A DNA stretch of 25,439 bases from Rhodothermota bacterium. GTDB taxonomy: Bacteria; Hydrogenedentota; Hydrogenedentia; Hydrogenedentales; GCA-2746185. A model generated the notes under the pieces. It worked only from the letters and a program-made list of their open reading frames with translations, did not search any database and was not told where the DNA came from. Numbering within the stretch: position 1 is the stretch's first letter; each line of letters starts with the position of its first letter. Shown here piece after piece: positions 1-4,047 of the stretch. The translations under genes and the position numbers were made by a program. The stretch covers positions 1 through 25,439 of the forward strand of contig VFKU01000787.1 in NCBI GenBank assembly GCA_009885415.1. The letters run 5' to 3'.

Positions 1-53
1 GCGAGTCCTTTGAGGATCGAGCGGCGGGTGATAGTGGGGGATGGGTGGGACAT
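1..53 (-). CDS. 5' end of a probable Tat-exported protein (partial, runs off the left edge)
   Basis: Minus-strand ATG at 53-51, preceded by GGAG, reads MSHPSPTITRRSILKGL. TRRSILK matches the twin-arginine consensus (S/T)RRxFLK. Not in the ORF track because it is truncated. Confidence 0.6.
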   Translation of the reverse strand, partial: MSHPSPTITRRSILKGL

Positions 54-195
54 TCGAAGGTCTCCATGAGTACGAATCGCGGATGGCTTCGACGCCTCGC
101 CCAATTCGTGCTCGTTACAGTGGCTCAAGTTCAAAATCTCGCTTTCTCCACCCCCTCGAACCGTTTGACCAGGGAGCGTAAATTCTCATAAATGA

Positions 196-1167
196 TCACA
201 GGCTAAAAAGGTTATCGGGCACAACAATGACGAGGGATTTATCCGTTTCGACTTCGTTCACTCTACGGTTGTAGCACTCAAGAAAGCTTCTTAGACTTCC
301 ACCAACCGCTTTAGCCGAAAAAAAGGAATTCTCATCCAAATTTGTCGCGACGAAGGCTTCTATTGAGAGCACAGTAACCTTCTCGGGATTCGAATAATCT
401 TCAATCAGCCCGCGAGCCGTGGGAACGCGTTTTTCGGGAACCAAGAGATAAGGGCGTAGACCCGCAACTATATTCTGTTCGCAGCGCTGGCAATGTCCTT
501 GGTTGGGCGCGACCGTTATGTGGAATGCGACGTCATTGAGAACAAAATCGCCGTGTCGACCAAGTTGCTTGTCTGCGGTTGTAACACTCTGGTTCTCAAC
601 TCGAATTTGCGGAAAACTTACTTCGAGTTTCGCGCCGACCATGTGCTGCGCCACCGATCCATCCTTTTTGAAAACTCTGGCGGACGCTAAAATCCGCTGA
701 ATGTTCTCGAATGTACTCAGGGCGGGGTCGAGCGCGACTTCCAGCCGGCGATCGGCGAGCCAATCCTGAACTCTATCGGCGAGAAAACTCTGACACCTTC
801 CGATCAGTTCGAGTCTCTTCGAAACAGCCAGCTTCTCTATCCCAGCGTCACCGAGGAGGCTTAACAATTCCTCGCAATTCGGAATGTTTCCTCGATTAGT
901 CCGGATTCCATCCCCCACGAATTCCTTCTCAATTCCATATCGTTCGTTAAGTAATTTTCTTAGTCGCGCAGGAGACGCACCGGCGATCTGGGTGCCTTTT
1001 TCTGCACGATGACTTTGAATGTTCAGATTGCAGTCATTCCTCAAACGCTCAAGCAAAATGAACGACGATCCAATGGCTCCTCTGGAAGGAAATCCGTCGG
1101 GCTGCAACTGAAGAGCGTTGAACCACTTGGAGAACGCCAGGAAAGTATTTTCGATGGATGGTTTCAA
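196..1167 (-). CDS. DUF4928-like protein, putative restriction endonuclease partner of the adjacent methyltransferase (about 323 aa)
   Basis: Motifs VAQHMVGAKL, ADKQLGRHGDF..FHITVAP, SIEAFVATN and YNRRVNEVETDKSL resemble the DUF4928 family as I recall it. Preferred start is TTG at 1167-1165, overlapping the upstream TGA (TTGA); the track start at 1200 is also a TTG. The endonuclease role is inferred from gene context. Confidence 0.7.
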   Translation of the reverse strand: MKPSIENTFLAFSKWFNALQLQPDGFPSRGAIGSSFILLERLRNDCNLNIQSHRAEKGTQIAGASPARLRKLLNERYGIEKEFVGDGIRTNRGNIPNCEELLSLLGDAGIEKLAVSKRLELIGRCQSFLADRVQDWLADRRLEVALDPALSTFENIQRILASARVFKKDGSVAQHMVGAKLEVSFPQIRVENQSVTTADKQLGRHGDFVLNDVAFHITVAPNQGHCQRCEQNIVAGLRPYLLVPEKRVPTARGLIEDYSNPEKVTVLSIEAFVATNLDENSFFSAKAVGGSLRSFLECYNRRVNEVETDKSLVIVVPDNLFSL

Positions 1168-2783
1168 GAGGCGTATGCAGGCGTGCTGCCCGGGCGACAA
1201 CGTATTAATTCATTTAGGACCGGGTTGAGATAGTACTTCGAAATCCAGTCCACGGCAGGCACGCAGACCGCATCTCCAAATCCAAACAACGCCTGATTCC
1301 CTTTGACAGTAATGCGGAAGTCGCCCGCCCCCATCAGTCTCGCACATTCTCTCGGCGTAAGCAGCCGTGCTTTATAGCGCCCATACCCGGCCTTGAAAAG
1401 AATTTGCCGTGCACTGCCACCTTTGGGGGTGCGAAGACAACCCGCTATGCCGTCGCATCTAAGCTCCGCTGTCGACACACCATTGCGTATTCGACGGAAC
1501 ACGGTTCCATATGCCCAGACTCGTTTCTTCATCATTTCGCATGCGAGCTTCTTGTGCCTTTCACTCATCTGACTAAGGAGATAATCCGCGCGATCCTCCG
1601 ACCACCATTCGGGCGCAGCATCCGGAAAATCTTCCAGAATTTCCTTAAGCTCAATAGACAGAACAGGTGGCGGCGGTAAATCGCGAACACGCCACCTTAT
1701 ATCCGGAGATTGAAAAATAAAATCCGCCAGCACAGCTGGCCGCACAGCGCTCTGGTAGAACAGAGGTTCTTCTGCGACTTGATGGACGACGTCTAAGTTT
1801 TCACGAATGCCAATGACAAATAGTCTTTGTCTGCTCTGGGGCACAAAATTAAGCGCATCGAGAATAAATGCGTCGACTGCATAGCCAAGATCGTTTAGCA
1901 TACGGAGCGCATCGCGAAAGTCGTTGCCATTGTGCGAGCTAAGAAATCCAGGCACGTTTTCTATAAGTACTATAGCGGGTCGTTTCTCCTGCATCAGTCT
2001 TAGACAATTCGTGAAACCCCAGAAAGCAGATGAATGCTTGCCTTGAAGCCCGCGGCGTGCACCAGCCAATGACAAGTCGGTGCAAGGGAACGATGCAGTT
2101 GCTAGTGTTGCAGCGGGAATCTTCGAAGCGTCGAGCGAGTTCACGTCCTCAAGCAAATAGAGACCATTCGCCCCATCATCGAATTGCGCCTCGTACATCT
2201 CCTTTTTTGCCGGATCGATGTCATTTGCAAACACTGTTCGCCAGCCAGATTTTTCCAAACCCATTCTCATTAAACCGATTCCTGCGAAGAATTCCAGTAC
2301 AGTTCTCCCTAGTAGGCGTTCGATTATGTCTCTGGGCACCCTATCTTCTAAGATTGTTCGCTCAACAGTTGTTACGCACTCATCTGCCCGAGCGCGAATA
2401 TCAGCCTCCCAAAATCGCAGGACTTTCCAGCCTTCTAGCAGCAACTGCGAGGTCGATTCGATATCTCGCTCCATATTACGTCGAATCTTGCGTGTCCAGT
2501 AATCCTTGGAAGATGTAGCGGTAAATTGATCCTCAATGCAGGCGAGATCTCGCGTCTGCCATTGAGCACCGTGCCAGAACTCGCCATCAACAAATATCGC
2601 AACTCGATGCTTTGCCAACACCAAATCCGGTTTGCCCGGAAGAGTCCGATCGCAGACACGGAAGCGGAGACCGCGTTTAGATAGTGCGTGCCTAAGCAAT
2701 AGCTCCGGTTCAGTGCCGTCGCTCCTTACGCGCCGCATCCGATCAGAAATCGAAGCCGTGGATTTTAAGGATTTTCGGGCCAT
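1164..2783 (-). CDS. vsr-dcm: Vsr (very-short-patch repair) endonuclease fused to a DNA (cytosine-5) methyltransferase (about 539 aa)
   Basis: N-terminal Vsr motifs: MRRVRSDGTEPE, LPGKPDLV, IFVDGEFWHG, YWTRKIRRNMERD, GWKVLRFWE. C5-MTase motifs: I FFAGIG, IV FPC (SFPCTDLS), VI ENV, VIII QSRQRLF, IX RLLTPRECARLMG, X FGDAV. No stop between the domains. ATG at 2783 is preferred over the track's GTG at 2825. Confidence 0.92.
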   Translation of the reverse strand: MARKSLKSTASISDRMRRVRSDGTEPELLLRHALSKRGLRFRVCDRTLPGKPDLVLAKHRVAIFVDGEFWHGAQWQTRDLACIEDQFTATSSKDYWTRKIRRNMERDIESTSQLLLEGWKVLRFWEADIRARADECVTTVERTILEDRVPRDIIERLLGRTVLEFFAGIGLMRMGLEKSGWRTVFANDIDPAKKEMYEAQFDDGANGLYLLEDVNSLDASKIPAATLATASFPCTDLSLAGARRGLQGKHSSAFWGFTNCLRLMQEKRPAIVLIENVPGFLSSHNGNDFRDALRMLNDLGYAVDAFILDALNFVPQSRQRLFVIGIRENLDVVHQVAEEPLFYQSAVRPAVLADFIFQSPDIRWRVRDLPPPPVLSIELKEILEDFPDAAPEWWSEDRADYLLSQMSERHKKLACEMMKKRVWAYGTVFRRIRNGVSTAELRCDGIAGCLRTPKGGSARQILFKAGYGRYKARLLTPRECARLMGAGDFRITVKGNQALFGFGDAVCVPAVDWISKYYLNPVLNELIRCRPGSTPAYAS

Positions 2784-2810
2784 TCGCAAGGTACTCTGTG
2801 TTTTCAGACA

Positions 2811-2839
2811 AGCATACGGACTCACATTTCTAAGCGCAA
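2811..2839 (-). promoter_or_regulatory. Candidate sigma70 promoter for the vsr-MTase/DUF4928 operon
   Basis: On the minus strand, TTGCGC (2839-2834), a 17-nt spacer and TATGCT (2816-2811); the -10 box ends 27 nt upstream of the ATG at 2783. Confidence 0.45.
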
Positions 2840-2880
2840 GGTGCTAGGACACGACCGGAGGACAACCTCAGGCGCTACCT

Positions 2881-4047
2881 TCAATACGACTTCGGCAGGC
2901 CCATGACGTGTTCGCCGATGAAATTTAGCGCCATTTCTTGCGAGACGGGCGCGATTTTGTAGAGCCGGACCTCGCGCCAGAGCCGCTCGATGTGGTACTC
3001 GCGGGCGTAGCCCATGCCGCCGTGGGTTTGGAGCGAGGCGTCGCAGGCCTCGAAGCCGGCGTCGGCGGCGCGCAGCTTGGCGATGTTCGCTTCCGCGCCG
3101 CAGGCGTGGTTGTGGTCGTAGAGCCACGCGCCGTGCAGCACCATGAGCCACGCGACCTCGAGCTTGCTGTAGGCCTCGGCCAGCGGAAACTGGATGCCTT
3201 GGTTCGCACCGATGGGCCGGCCGAAGACGACGCGCTCCTTCGCGTAGCGCACGCCGAGGTCGAGCGCGGCGCGGCCGATGCCGACCGCTTCCGCGGCGAC
3301 CATGAGCCGCTCGGGGTTGAGCCCGGAAATGAGCTGGTAAAAGCCCTTGCCTTCTTCGCCGACGAGCGCGCTCGCGGGCACGCGGACCTGGTCGAGGAAG
3401 AGTTCGTTCGAGTCCACCGCCGCGCGGCCGAGCTTGTCGATCTCGCGGATGGTGACGCCGGGCAAGGTGAGGTCGACGAGGAAGAGCGACATACCCATCG
3501 TCTTCTTCTCGCACTGCTCGAAGGGCGTCGTGCGCGCGAGGAGCAGCGTCCGGCCCGAGCGCTGCAAATTGCTCGACCAGACTTTCTTGCCCGTGATGAG
3601 GTAGTCGTCGCCGTCGCGCACCGCGCGCGTCGTGATGCGCGAGGTGTCGGTGCCGGCGTCGGGCTCGGTGATGCTGAAGCCGAGGCTGAGTTCGCCCGCG
3701 GCGATTTTCGGGAGGAGATCCTTTTTCTGTTCTTCGCTGCCGTACTTGATCACCGGCATCGGGGGAAAAAACGCGAAGTGTACCGGCGAGGCGCCGGTGG
3801 TGCCTGCGCCGGCCGCGCAGATCTCGTGGAGGACGAGACAGGCTTCCGTGATGCCCAGGCCCGCGCCGCCGTAGGCCTCGGGGATGACGACCCCGAGCCA
3901 GCCTGCGTCGGCCATGGCTTTCAGGAAGGCCTCAGGATAGGTGGCGCTCGCGTCGCGCTCGCGCCAATAGTCCAGCCCGAAGCGGTTGCACAGGGCGCGG
4001 ACTTGTGTGCGGATCGCTTCGTGCTCTTCGCTGAGAGTGAAATTCAT
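2881..4047 (-). CDS. Acyl-CoA dehydrogenase family protein (388 aa)
   Basis: FSITEPDAGTD, ITGKKVWSS, LNPERL, VFGRPIGANQGIQF, LQTHGGMGYAREYHIERLWRE motifs. Confidence 0.93.
   Translation of the reverse strand: MNFTLSEEHEAIRTQVRALCNRFGLDYWRERDASATYPEAFLKAMADAGWLGVVIPEAYGGAGLGITEACLVLHEICAAGAGTTGASPVHFAFFPPMPVIKYGSEEQKKDLLPKIAAGELSLGFSITEPDAGTDTSRITTRAVRDGDDYLITGKKVWSSNLQRSGRTLLLARTTPFEQCEKKTMGMSLFLVDLTLPGVTIREIDKLGRAAVDSNELFLDQVRVPASALVGEEGKGFYQLISGLNPERLMVAAEAVGIGRAALDLGVRYAKERVVFGRPIGANQGIQFPLAEAYSKLEVAWLMVLHGAWLYDHNHACGAEANIAKLRAADAGFEACDASLQTHGGMGYAREYHIERLWREVRLYKIAPVSQEMALNFIGEHVMGLPKSY

What the first reader, a model, noticed from the sequence alone, without database searches (positions are those of the whole stretch)
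1164..2783. Vsr endonuclease fused in-frame to a C5-cytosine methyltransferase: a candidate self-repairing methylation enzyme
Seen: one ORF carries a complete Vsr domain (about 2783-2349), a 15-aa linker (EDRVPRDIIERLLGR) and a complete C5-MTase starting at motif I (2291). Known: vsr and dcm are normally separate adjacent or overlapping genes, and Vsr nicks T:G mismatches made by deamination of the MTase's 5mC. Inference: fusion would tether repair to the methylation sites and fix a 1:1 stoichiometry. An in-frame GTG in the linker (2339-2337), after a purine-rich stretch, could also yield a free 391-aa MTase. The Vsr half lacks the E. coli Vsr Zn-ligand Cys residues (FVDGEFWHG, WEAD), and motif X reads GDAV.
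Basis: partly seen in the sequence, partly recalled or inferred. Interest (0 to 1): 0.8.

Follow-up and report, generated by a model that had tools for sequence, protein, structure and literature searches.

The report
Fused Vsr repair nuclease–cytosine methyltransferase gene
One gene really does encode a T:G-mismatch repair nuclease (Vsr) joined to a cytosine-5 DNA methyltransferase, but this fusion is a widespread, database-annotated part of a mobile restriction-modification cassette, so it is a normal member of a little-studied family, not a one-off.

Summary
ORF 2783..1164 (-) encodes 539 aa. Residues 1-145 match Vsr and 156-539 match a C5-MTase, both above curated HMM cut-offs.

The fusion is not unusual. 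The best 120 database homologues (55-62% identical) are all full-length fusions from many phyla, and 56 distinct related genome loci carry it. A Chryseobacterium indologenes protein has the same architecture.

The gene is translationally coupled to a DUF4928 gene that looks like a Type II restriction endonuclease. Both sit in a 50% GC island in a 65% GC genome. This is a compact V·M–R restriction-modification cassette.

The fused Vsr domains form one clade without zinc ligands. They keep every catalytic and DNA-wedge residue and have a connector of fixed length. AlphaFold predicts a confident two-domain arrangement (pTM 0.88).

Related MTases have separate vsr genes of other clades, or none. 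No comparative support exists for an internal start giving a free MTase.

Best reading: a bifunctional protein that methylates the cassette's target and nicks the T:G mismatches left by 5mC deamination. The target sequence is unknown and no activity was tested. I score it as a new member of a known kind, with modest interest. The scan's DUF4928 note on this window agrees.

The parts
1164..2783 (-). Single gene for the 539-aa Vsr–C5-MTase fusion protein (stop TGA at 1166-1164)
   Evidence: Uninterrupted translation. Pfam and NCBIfam hits to both domains are above the curated cut-offs. The best 120 homologues are full-length fusions.
2349..2783 (-). Vsr (T:G mismatch endonuclease) domain, residues 1-145, of the zinc-less clade
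   Evidence: TIGR00632 scores 117.6 bits. PDB 1cw0 matches at E 3e-18. M16, T24, E27, D53, D66, W70 and H71 are invariant in all 120 homologues, D107 is in 119 and F69 is F/Y/L. All 57 fused Vsr domains lack Cys and form one clade.
2319..2348 (-). Short inter-domain connector, residues 146-155. Codon V149 is the in-frame GTG at 2339-2337.
   Evidence: M.HhaI homology starts at residue 156. AlphaFold places a helix at 152-159, with block pLDDT of 77-83. Spacing is fixed at 35 residues in 107 of 120 homologues. Start codons are not enriched here.
1167..2318 (-). C5-cytosine DNA methyltransferase domain, residues 156-539. It has motif I FFAGIG, motif IV FPC, motif VI ENV, motif VIII QSRQR and motif X GDAV, plus a family-conserved target-recognition region.
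   Evidence: PF00145 scores 169 bits and TIGR00675 163 bits. PADLOC MTase_II PDLC03243 matches at E 6e-119. M.HhaI matches at E 2e-31 by sequence and TM 0.72-0.76 by fold. Invariant motif residues are listed.
196..1167 (-). DUF4928 gene, the probable Type II restriction endonuclease of the cassette. Its likely TTG start at 1167-1165 overlaps the MTase stop (TTGA).
   Evidence: PF16280 scores 216 bits. PADLOC REase_II PDLC03543 matches at E 7e-33. It lies directly downstream of the fusion. A 323-aa product from TTG 1167 fits the 308-336 aa of the homologues. AlphaFold gives pLDDT 92. The best structural matches are restriction nucleases: EcoT38I at Z 7.8, then the R.BspD6I, MspJI, AspBHI and FokI nuclease domains.
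1..2880 (.). Low-GC (about 50%) island carrying the two-gene cassette. It runs off the left end of the contig. On the right it abuts a 67-69% GC acyl-CoA dehydrogenase gene (2881-4047).
   Evidence: Composition profile. The window is the whole of contig C781. Pfam identifies the neighbouring gene.

Best explanation
The ORF is the modification-plus-repair component of a horizontally acquired Type II restriction-modification cassette, V·M–R.

Shown: one polypeptide carries an N-terminal Vsr-family nuclease domain and a C-terminal C5-cytosine methyltransferase, and the next gene (DUF4928) is translationally coupled to it.

Inferred:
- DUF4928 is the cognate restriction endonuclease.
- The MTase domain methylates the cassette's target, which is unknown, and so protects the host from that nuclease.
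- When 5-methylcytosine in that target deaminates to thymine, the Vsr domain nicks 5' of the T in the T:G mismatch, and host Pol I and ligase restore C:G.
- Fusion guarantees that an incoming m5C system brings its own anti-mutagenic repair, made in 1:1 ratio with the MTase from one promoter and one start codon.

The fusion is old. The fused Vsr domains form a single zinc-less clade with a fixed-length connector and a confidently predicted domain packing, and they have spread across many phyla by horizontal transfer.
For: - Both domains pass curated HMM cut-offs.
- The E. coli Vsr positions D51, H69, D97, T22 and E25 and the DNA wedge M14, F67, W68 correspond to D53, H71, D107, T24, E27, M16, F69 and W70 (alignment). 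These are invariant or nearly so in 120 homologues.
- All the C5-MTase motifs examined (I, IV, VI, VIII, X) are present, and their key residues are invariant or nearly so.
- DUF4928 follows the fusion directly, across distinct genome contexts: 31 of the 56 other distinct fused loci have a DUF4928 hit. It hits a REBASE-derived REase_II model and has a restriction-nuclease-like fold.
- In closely related MTases (59-63% identical) the Vsr function is supplied by a separate adjacent vsr gene, either upstream or after the REase. This shows the fused domain is functionally equivalent to an ordinary Vsr.
- The 57 fused Vsr domains (56 loci plus the window) form one clade. On the MTase tree the fused state is deep and the unfused forms are nested within it.
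- AlphaFold gives pTM 0.88 and mean pLDDT 85.7.
- The GC content marks an island.
- Nothing indicates an alternative start.
- The sequence across the junction is confirmed by an independent contig.
Against: - No activity, target sequence or expression was tested here.
- The four zinc ligands of E. coli Vsr are absent, so stability and activity of the domain rest on conservation and a predicted fold only.
- 25 of the 56 other distinct fused loci had no detectable DUF4928, and some DUF4928 genes carry stops or are truncated. In many hosts the fusion therefore works as an orphan MTase, and the link to this nuclease is not obligatory.
- Structural matches for DUF4928 are modest (Z below 8), and Foldseek and sequence searches of the PDB found nothing.
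- The literature library held no paper describing this fusion. That it is 'known' rests on database annotation.
Confidence: 0.75

Rival explanations
1. The gene makes two products: the full-length fusion and a free 391-aa MTase started at the internal GTG (2339-2337). The effective stoichiometry would then not be 1:1.
For: An in-frame GTG exists at V149 after a purine-rich stretch. It lies seven codons upstream of residue 156, where the M.HhaI homology begins.
Against: The upstream sequence has no GGAG, GAGG or AGGA at a useful spacing; AGG abuts the GTG. Across 49 fused loci, start codons before motif I are no more common than in control windows. SD-plus-start occurs in 3 of 49 against 9% of controls, and 19 loci have no start codon there. 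The position is not conserved as Val or Met.
Confidence: 0.08
2. The Vsr-like domain is not a repair enzyme. It is the DNA-cleaving or nicking module of a fused restriction-modification enzyme, as in other restriction enzymes that use Vsr-like nuclease domains. DUF4928 would then be an accessory protein.
For: Vsr-fold nuclease domains occur in restriction enzymes, for example AbaSI (PMC4081097, listed). There are sub-threshold hits to DUF559 and REase_MTES_1575 at residues 100-144. Vsr domains are also fused to other nuclease-like domains (P0263).
Against: The domain passes the Vsr-specific NCBIfam cut-off. It keeps the mismatch-wedge residues M16, F69 and W70. Related cassettes carry ordinary stand-alone vsr genes in its place. 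DUF4928 itself matches a Type II REase model and restriction-nuclease folds. The fusion persists where DUF4928 has decayed, as expected of an MTase with repair but not of a restriction enzyme.
Confidence: 0.07
3. The Vsr half is a catalytically dead remnant, having lost its zinc site. It survives only as a folding, DNA-binding or regulatory appendage of the MTase.
For: All four E. coli zinc-ligand positions are replaced, by D/E68, G/A73, the insertion with W75, and S/A127. pLDDT drops to about 70 in residues 71-80.
Against: The catalytic and wedge residues M16, T24, E27, D53, D66, W70 and H71 are invariant in all 120 homologues at only 55-62% overall identity, and D107 is kept in 119. That is hard to explain without selection for catalysis. 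Zinc-less stand-alone Vsr genes exist (L068, L072). The rest of the domain is predicted with pLDDT of 85-97.
Confidence: 0.08
4. The fusion is an assembly or sequencing artefact, such as a lost stop codon or a frameshift between two adjacent genes.
For: The window comes from a low-coverage metagenome bin of 944 contigs with depth about 3-5.
Against: The same single ORF with the same connector length occurs in 56 other distinct genome loci and in the 120 best protein clusters. A per-run contig spans the junction without an indel.
Confidence: 0.01

Closest known systems
Database family of Vsr–C5-MTase fusion proteins, about 515-565 aa. NCBI names them 'DNA mismatch endonuclease Vsr' and JGI 'DNA (cytosine-5)-methyltransferase 1'. 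Examples: P0007, P0008, P0013, P0024 and the Chryseobacterium indologenes protein P0315.
   Same: Same domain order, same connector length, same zinc-less Vsr motif (F-I/V-D-G-D/E-F-W-H-G-x-Q-W), same GFGDAVCV motif X, and usually the same DUF4928 neighbour. The 120 best homologues are 55-62% identical over the full length; the more distant P0315 was compared only over the Vsr part, at 44%.
   Different: The best match is only about 60% identical. Here the cassette sits in a 65% GC freshwater-sediment genome bin. None of these proteins appears to have been characterised in the literature I could search.
E. coli Dcm / Vsr (very-short-patch repair; Vsr structure PDB 1cw0)
   Same: A C5-MTase paired with a T:G endonuclease. 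The Vsr domain aligns to 1cw0 at E 3e-18 and keeps the catalytic and intercalating residues. Expression of the two functions is coupled.
   Different: In E. coli there are two proteins from overlapping genes in the order dcm then vsr, and Dcm is an orphan MTase. Here there is one polypeptide in the order Vsr then MTase, belonging to an R-M cassette, and the C66/H71/C73/C117 zinc site is missing. The same genome also holds a classical M-then-V pair with a Cys-type Vsr on contig C694.
M.HhaI (GCGC C5-MTase, PDB 10mh and others), the closest solved methyltransferase
   Same: The catalytic domain matches at E 2e-31 over residues 156-354, plus motifs IX-X. Foldseek gives TM 0.72-0.76 normalised to M.HhaI.
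   Different: The target-recognition region (about residues 355-468) does not align, so specificity cannot be transferred. M.HhaI has no Vsr domain.
Related cassettes with a separate vsr gene: V,M (L063, L067, L069, L070, L074, L079, L082) and M–R–V (L065, L066, L077, L081, L084)
   Same: The MTase is 59-63% identical, and several have the same DUF4928 nuclease.
   Different: Vsr is a separate gene of another clade, mostly of the Cys type (FVDGCFWHG…C), and only 34-48% identical to the fused domain.

Membership tests
Vsr endonuclease family (Pfam PF03852 / NCBIfam TIGR00632) | Family HMM score above the curated cut-off | tested here: met
   PF03852 scores 83.4 bits against a cut-off of 27. TIGR00632 scores 117.6 bits against 97.85.
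Vsr endonuclease family (Pfam PF03852 / NCBIfam TIGR00632) | Catalytic residues equivalent to E. coli D51, H69 and D97, plus T22 and E25 | tested here: met
   D53, H71, D107, T24 and E27 in the alignment to 1cw0. All are invariant in 120 homologues except D107, which is in 119. The catalytic role of the E. coli residues comes from my own knowledge of the Vsr structural literature.
Vsr endonuclease family (Pfam PF03852 / NCBIfam TIGR00632) | DNA-intercalating wedge (E. coli M14, F67, W68) | tested here: met
   M16 and W70 are invariant and F69 is F/Y/L.
E. coli-type (zinc-bearing) Vsr | Structural zinc site C66/H71/C73/C117 | tested here: not met
   The positions hold E68, A73, an insertion with W75, and A127. 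The whole fused clade lacks the ligands. This is a feature of the prototype and is not required by the family models. I therefore file the domain as a zinc-less Vsr subfamily.
Vsr endonuclease family (Pfam PF03852 / NCBIfam TIGR00632) | Mg-dependent nicking 5' of the T in T:G mismatches within the partner MTase's target | not testable with these tools
   Needs biochemistry, and the target sequence is unknown.
C5-cytosine DNA methyltransferase (PF00145 / TIGR00675) | Family HMM above the cut-off, and the conserved motifs I (FxGxG), IV (PC), VI (ENV), VIII (QxRxR) and X | tested here: met
   169 and 163 bits. FFAGIG is at 165-170, FPC at 232-234, ENV at 275-277 and QSRQR at 316-320. Motif X is GDAV where GN(A/S)V is usual. 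The Asp is conserved across the family, including in unfused relatives paired with a nuclease.
C5-cytosine DNA methyltransferase (PF00145 / TIGR00675) | Methyl transfer to C5 of a defined target sequence | not testable with these tools
   No methylome data. The target-recognition region has no characterised relative among solved structures.
Type II restriction-modification system | MTase gene adjacent to a separate cognate endonuclease gene | tested here: met
   DUF4928 is directly downstream with a TTGA overlap. The adjacency is conserved. PADLOC REase_II matches at E 7e-33.
Type II restriction-modification system | The endonuclease has a nuclease fold and cleaves unmethylated target DNA | tested here: inconclusive
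   The seven best VIA-align matches are all restriction nucleases, but Z is at most 7.8. Foldseek and sequence profiles found nothing in the PDB. Cleavage was not tested.

The most novel reading that the evidence does not exclude
The fusion may be more than co-expression. It could be a rigid two-domain machine in which the zinc-less Vsr domain depends on the MTase domain, for folding or for sequence-specific targeting through the MTase recognition region. One protein would then find the deaminated site, nick it and re-methylate the repaired cytosine. The fixed 35-residue spacing, the single ancient clade and the high pTM are compatible with this but do not show it.
Probability: 0.15. Interest if true: 0.6.

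Novelty: new member of a known kind. Interest (0 to 1): 0.3.

Why it matters
For annotation, the locus should be called a Type II R-M cassette: a Vsr–m5C MTase fusion plus a DUF4928 nuclease, acquired horizontally.

More generally, this family is a natural experiment on how mobile m5C systems offset the mutagenic cost of 5-methylcytosine. The repair enzyme is welded to the MTase, has lost the structural zinc of the E. coli prototype, and has spread across Chloroflexota, Acidobacteriota, Nitrospirota, Planctomycetota, Bacillota and others.

The family seems to lack biochemical study, and the DUF4928 nuclease has no solved relative. A single expression and methylome experiment would therefore give a new specificity, a first activity for DUF4928 and a test of a zinc-free Vsr. 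This is useful but incremental. A restriction-modification specialist would not be surprised by it.

Tried and rejected
- **Literature.** Four full-text searches (Vsr with fusion or fused, 'Vsr domain', XorII, DUF4928) and seven papers read gave no description of a Vsr–MTase fusion. The single DUF4928 paper was not read.
- **Target sequence.**
  - The MTase recognition region matches no solved or characterised MTase.
  - An Akkermansia methylome search, chosen because L064 has a 63%-identical MTase, gave no usable lead in the titles and abstracts listed; no paper was opened.
  - The EcoT38I similarity of DUF4928 is too weak (Z 7.8, no sequence signal) to transfer a specificity.
- **Counting fused proteins.**
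  - The representative search with residues 1-175 gave 9351 Vsr-family clusters, but only 52 at E ≤ 1e-30, because the family collapses at 50% identity and many hits are fragments.
  - The word-index search of the Vsr region scored only 243 candidates.
  - Neither gives a true total, so I report lower bounds only.
- **First internal-start test.** The window was too wide and picked up a conserved Met in the last Vsr helix together with an SD-like Glu-Gly codon pair. It was redone with an 18-codon window.
- **Inter-domain geometry.** Only pTM and pLDDT could be used.
- **Island boundaries.** Repeat and promoter scans around the island gave nothing above chance.
- **Left end of the contig.** The 62-aa open frame at 3-191 has no Pfam match.
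Full report
**Observation**

The minus-strand frame 2783..1164 translates without interruption to 539 residues. The longest ORF form begins at GTG 2825. ATG 2783 leaves 12 residues before the conserved S-x-I-M-R-K-V-R-S segment, as in the family consensus.

Both halves pass curated thresholds:
- Pfam Vsr, residues 13-76, 83.4 bits against a cut-off of 27.
- Pfam DNA_methylase, residues 161-515, 169 bits against 22.
- NCBIfam vsr TIGR00632, residues 9-128, 117.6 bits against 97.85.
- NCBIfam dcm TIGR00675, 163 bits against 100.65.

- The linker is residues 146-160.
- GTG 2339-2337 is codon V149.
- 2291 begins F165 of FFAGIG.
- Motif X reads GDAV.

Per-run contigs from freshwater-sediment metagenomes lie on the region. 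One spans 2274-2561 across the junction with no indel and one synonymous change.

**Surroundings**

Positions 1-2900 have about 50% GC, against about 65% in the rest of the window. The window is a complete contig of a 944-contig genome bin, so the island runs off its left end.

The gene directly downstream is a DUF4928 protein (216 bits). Its likely TTG start at 1167-1165 overlaps the MTase stop as TTGA. That start gives 323 aa, within the 308-336 aa range of its homologues.

DUF4928 hits the PADLOC Type II REase model PDLC03543 at E 7e-33. The MTase half hits MTase_II PDLC03243 at E 6e-119 over the whole 377-position model.

An AlphaFold model of DUF4928 is confident (pLDDT 92). Foldseek finds no PDB match, and a sequence profile finds nothing either. 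An exhaustive VIA-align search gives restriction nucleases as the seven best matches. EcoT38I comes first at Z 7.8 with 244 aligned residues, followed by the nuclease domains of R.BspD6I, MspJI, AspBHI, LlaBIII, N.BspD6I and FokI. This signal is modest but consistent.

The right flank is an ordinary acyl-CoA dehydrogenase gene followed by a glutamate dehydrogenase gene.

**How common is the fusion?**

The 120 best protein clusters in a 5.8-billion-protein collection are all 515-593 aa. All carry both Pfam domains and are 55-62% identical to the query. Sources label them Bacillota, Nitrospirota, Poribacteria, Acidobacteriota and Chloroflexota. NCBI names them 'DNA mismatch endonuclease Vsr' and JGI 'DNA (cytosine-5)-methyltransferase 1'.

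Among these loci and those fetched by contig look-up, I classed 56 distinct loci other than the window's own as single-ORF fusions, counting L022 (near-terminal frame irregularity) as fused. A further 16 have a separate vsr gene and 9 have no vsr within the locus.

More distant fused proteins occur in cultured Bacteroidota, for example a 559-aa Chryseobacterium indologenes protein in NCBI and UniRef. Other architectures also exist:
- The reverse order, MTase then Vsr (P0218).
- A DUF4420 nuclease-like domain followed by Vsr (P0263).
- A structurally similar 546-aa fusion from another MTase family in AlphaFold DB.

The architecture is therefore well populated and already annotated. I found no paper on it in the searchable library.

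**Context elsewhere**

In two unrelated genome contexts the fusion is followed within 16 nt, or with a 17-nt overlap, by DUF4928. The cassette there lies between unrelated housekeeping genes. Of the 56 other distinct fused loci, 31 have a DUF4928 hit. Some of those are truncated (L015, L017) or carry an internal stop (L009, L050). This is the usual decay of a restriction gene that leaves the MTase behind.

**Anatomy of the Vsr half**

The HMMER alignment to E. coli Vsr (1cw0, E 3e-18) maps the residues as follows:
- D51 to D53
- H64 to D66
- H69 to H71
- D97 to D107
- T22 and E25 to T24 and E27
- the DNA wedge M14, F67, W68 to M16, F69, W70

M16, T24, E27, D53, D66, W70 and H71 are invariant in all 120 homologues. 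D107 is present in 119, and F69 is F, Y or L.

The zinc ligands are replaced throughout the fused clade:
- C66 by D/E68
- H71 by G/A73
- C73 by a 7-residue insertion followed by invariant Q74-W75
- C117 by S/A127

Stand-alone Vsr proteins next to closely related MTases are mostly of the Cys type (FVDGCFWHG…C, WE-C/H). Two zinc-less stand-alone examples exist, L068 and L072. In a Vsr-domain tree the 57 fused domains (56 loci plus the window) form one Cys-less clade apart from all the stand-alone ones.

The same genome also has a classical arrangement on contig C694. A C5-MTase 3' end is followed directly by a Cys-type vsr, next to an AIPR abortive-infection gene.

**Connector and domain packing**

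Homology to M.HhaI begins at residue 156, so the true connector is about ten residues long. The distance from RFWE to EFFAGIG is 35 residues in 107 of 120 homologues. AlphaFold, run on a 120-sequence alignment, gives mean pLDDT 85.7 and pTM 0.88. It places a helix at 152-159 leading into the first MTase strand. A pTM this high for a two-domain chain indicates a confidently predicted relative orientation. I could not inspect the coordinates.

**Internal start**

I tested 49 fused loci over the 18 codons before motif I.
- An in-frame ATG, GTG or TTG is present in 30 (61%), against 71% of equal-sized control windows in the same genes.
- A start with an SD-like tetramer upstream is present in 3 (6%), against 9% of controls.
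- Nineteen loci have no start codon there.

In the window, the GTG is abutted by AGG and has no canonical SD at a working distance. Nothing comparative supports a free MTase product.

**MTase half**

- Motifs I (FFAGIG), IV (FPC), VI (ENV) and VIII (QSRQR) are present and conserved. F166, G168, G170, F232-P233-C234, E275-N276-V277, S317, R318 and R320 are invariant, and the remaining motif residues are at 90% or more.
- Motif X reads GFGDAVCV across the family, including in unfused members that sit next to a nuclease gene. The Asp-for-Asn change is therefore a family trait and not a defect.
- The region 355-468 is strongly conserved within the family but aligns to no solved MTase. The target sequence cannot be inferred.

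**Evolution**

On a maximum-likelihood tree of 82 MTase domains, fused genes occupy the deep branches. The unfused forms are nested among them. They include a well-supported clade (100/97) of 12 genes, seven with a separate upstream Cys-type vsr and five with no vsr in the locus. Starred branches force only one change for the fused label. Phyla are thoroughly mixed.

Together with the single fused Vsr clade, this points to one old fusion, later replacement or loss of the Vsr module in some lineages, and frequent horizontal transfer. The tree is midpoint-rooted and samples only the best 80 loci, so the direction of change is an inference.

**Mechanism**

Shown:
- The architecture.
- The conservation of both catalytic sets.
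- The coupling to a nuclease-like gene.
- The island character of the region.

Inferred:
- The MTase protects the host against the DUF4928 nuclease.
- The Vsr domain nicks the T:G mismatches produced by 5mC deamination in the same target.
- The fusion ensures co-transfer and equimolar synthesis.

Rivals:
- **Vsr-like domain as a restriction module.** This is unlikely, given the Vsr-specific score, the retained wedge residues and the stand-alone vsr genes that take its place in related cassettes.
- **A dead Vsr domain.** This is unlikely given the invariance of the catalytic residues.
- **An artefact.** This is excluded by recurrence in many genomes.

**Verdict**

The feature is real and correctly described, but it is a typical member of a large, annotated fusion family that appears uncharacterised. 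The more specific points are the zinc-less Vsr clade, the fixed connector with predicted rigid packing, and the unsolved DUF4928 nuclease partner. These justify modest interest.

I checked its start-overlap claim and extended the nuclease assignment.

Noticed in passing
window 196-1167 (-): DUF4928 protein, the probable Type II restriction endonuclease. It matches PADLOC REase_II at E 7e-33, has a confident AlphaFold model and no sequence relative in the PDB. Its best fold matches are EcoT38I and the nuclease domains of BspD6I, MspJI and FokI (Z 6-8). Conserved residues include K180, D199, D207, H216, T218, E279 and E307.
   Followed up: partly
L002 (own genome, contig C694) 3-684 and 690-2120: The same genome holds a second m5C system in the classical layout. 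A C5-MTase 3' end (QVGNAVPP) is followed one base later by a 144-aa Cys-type vsr (FVHGCFWHRHQGC, VWEC). A convergent AIPR abortive-infection gene comes next.
   Followed up: partly
L009:5600-6562, L050:5598-6536, L015, L017: In several genomes the DUF4928 gene beside an intact Vsr–MTase fusion has an internal stop or is truncated. The restriction gene has decayed and left an orphan fused MTase.
   Followed up: partly
P0218, P0263, P0155, P0173, P0123, P0275, P0277: Vsr domains occur in other fusions:
- MTase then Vsr, the reverse order (P0218).
- A DUF4420 PD-(D/E)XK-like domain followed by Vsr (P0263).
- A Peptidase_S74 segment followed by Vsr (P0155).
- Several 340-500 aa proteins with an N-terminal Vsr and an unassigned C-terminal region.
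   Followed up: partly
L003:8651-10991: In one genome the fused cassette is followed by an AIPR gene and an IS (HTH_Tnp_1 plus rve transposase). This looks like a small defence island. An AIPR gene also neighbours the classical M/V pair in the window's own genome.
   Followed up: no
L068 and L072 (vsr about 700 nt downstream of the MTase): These are stand-alone zinc-less Vsr genes (CDSEFWHGY-R/Q-W, RFWE) beside MTases of the same family. They form their own branch outside the fused clade. No DUF4928 was detected between the MTase and vsr.
   Followed up: partly
window 2508: One per-run contig reads T where the window has G. This is a synonymous change in codon Ser92 (TCC to TCA on the coding strand), most likely a strain variant in the sediment sample.
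   Followed up: yes
window 3-191 (+): A 62-aa frame, open at the contig's left end and inside the low-GC island, has no Pfam match. What lies beyond the cassette on that side is unknown.
   Followed up: partly
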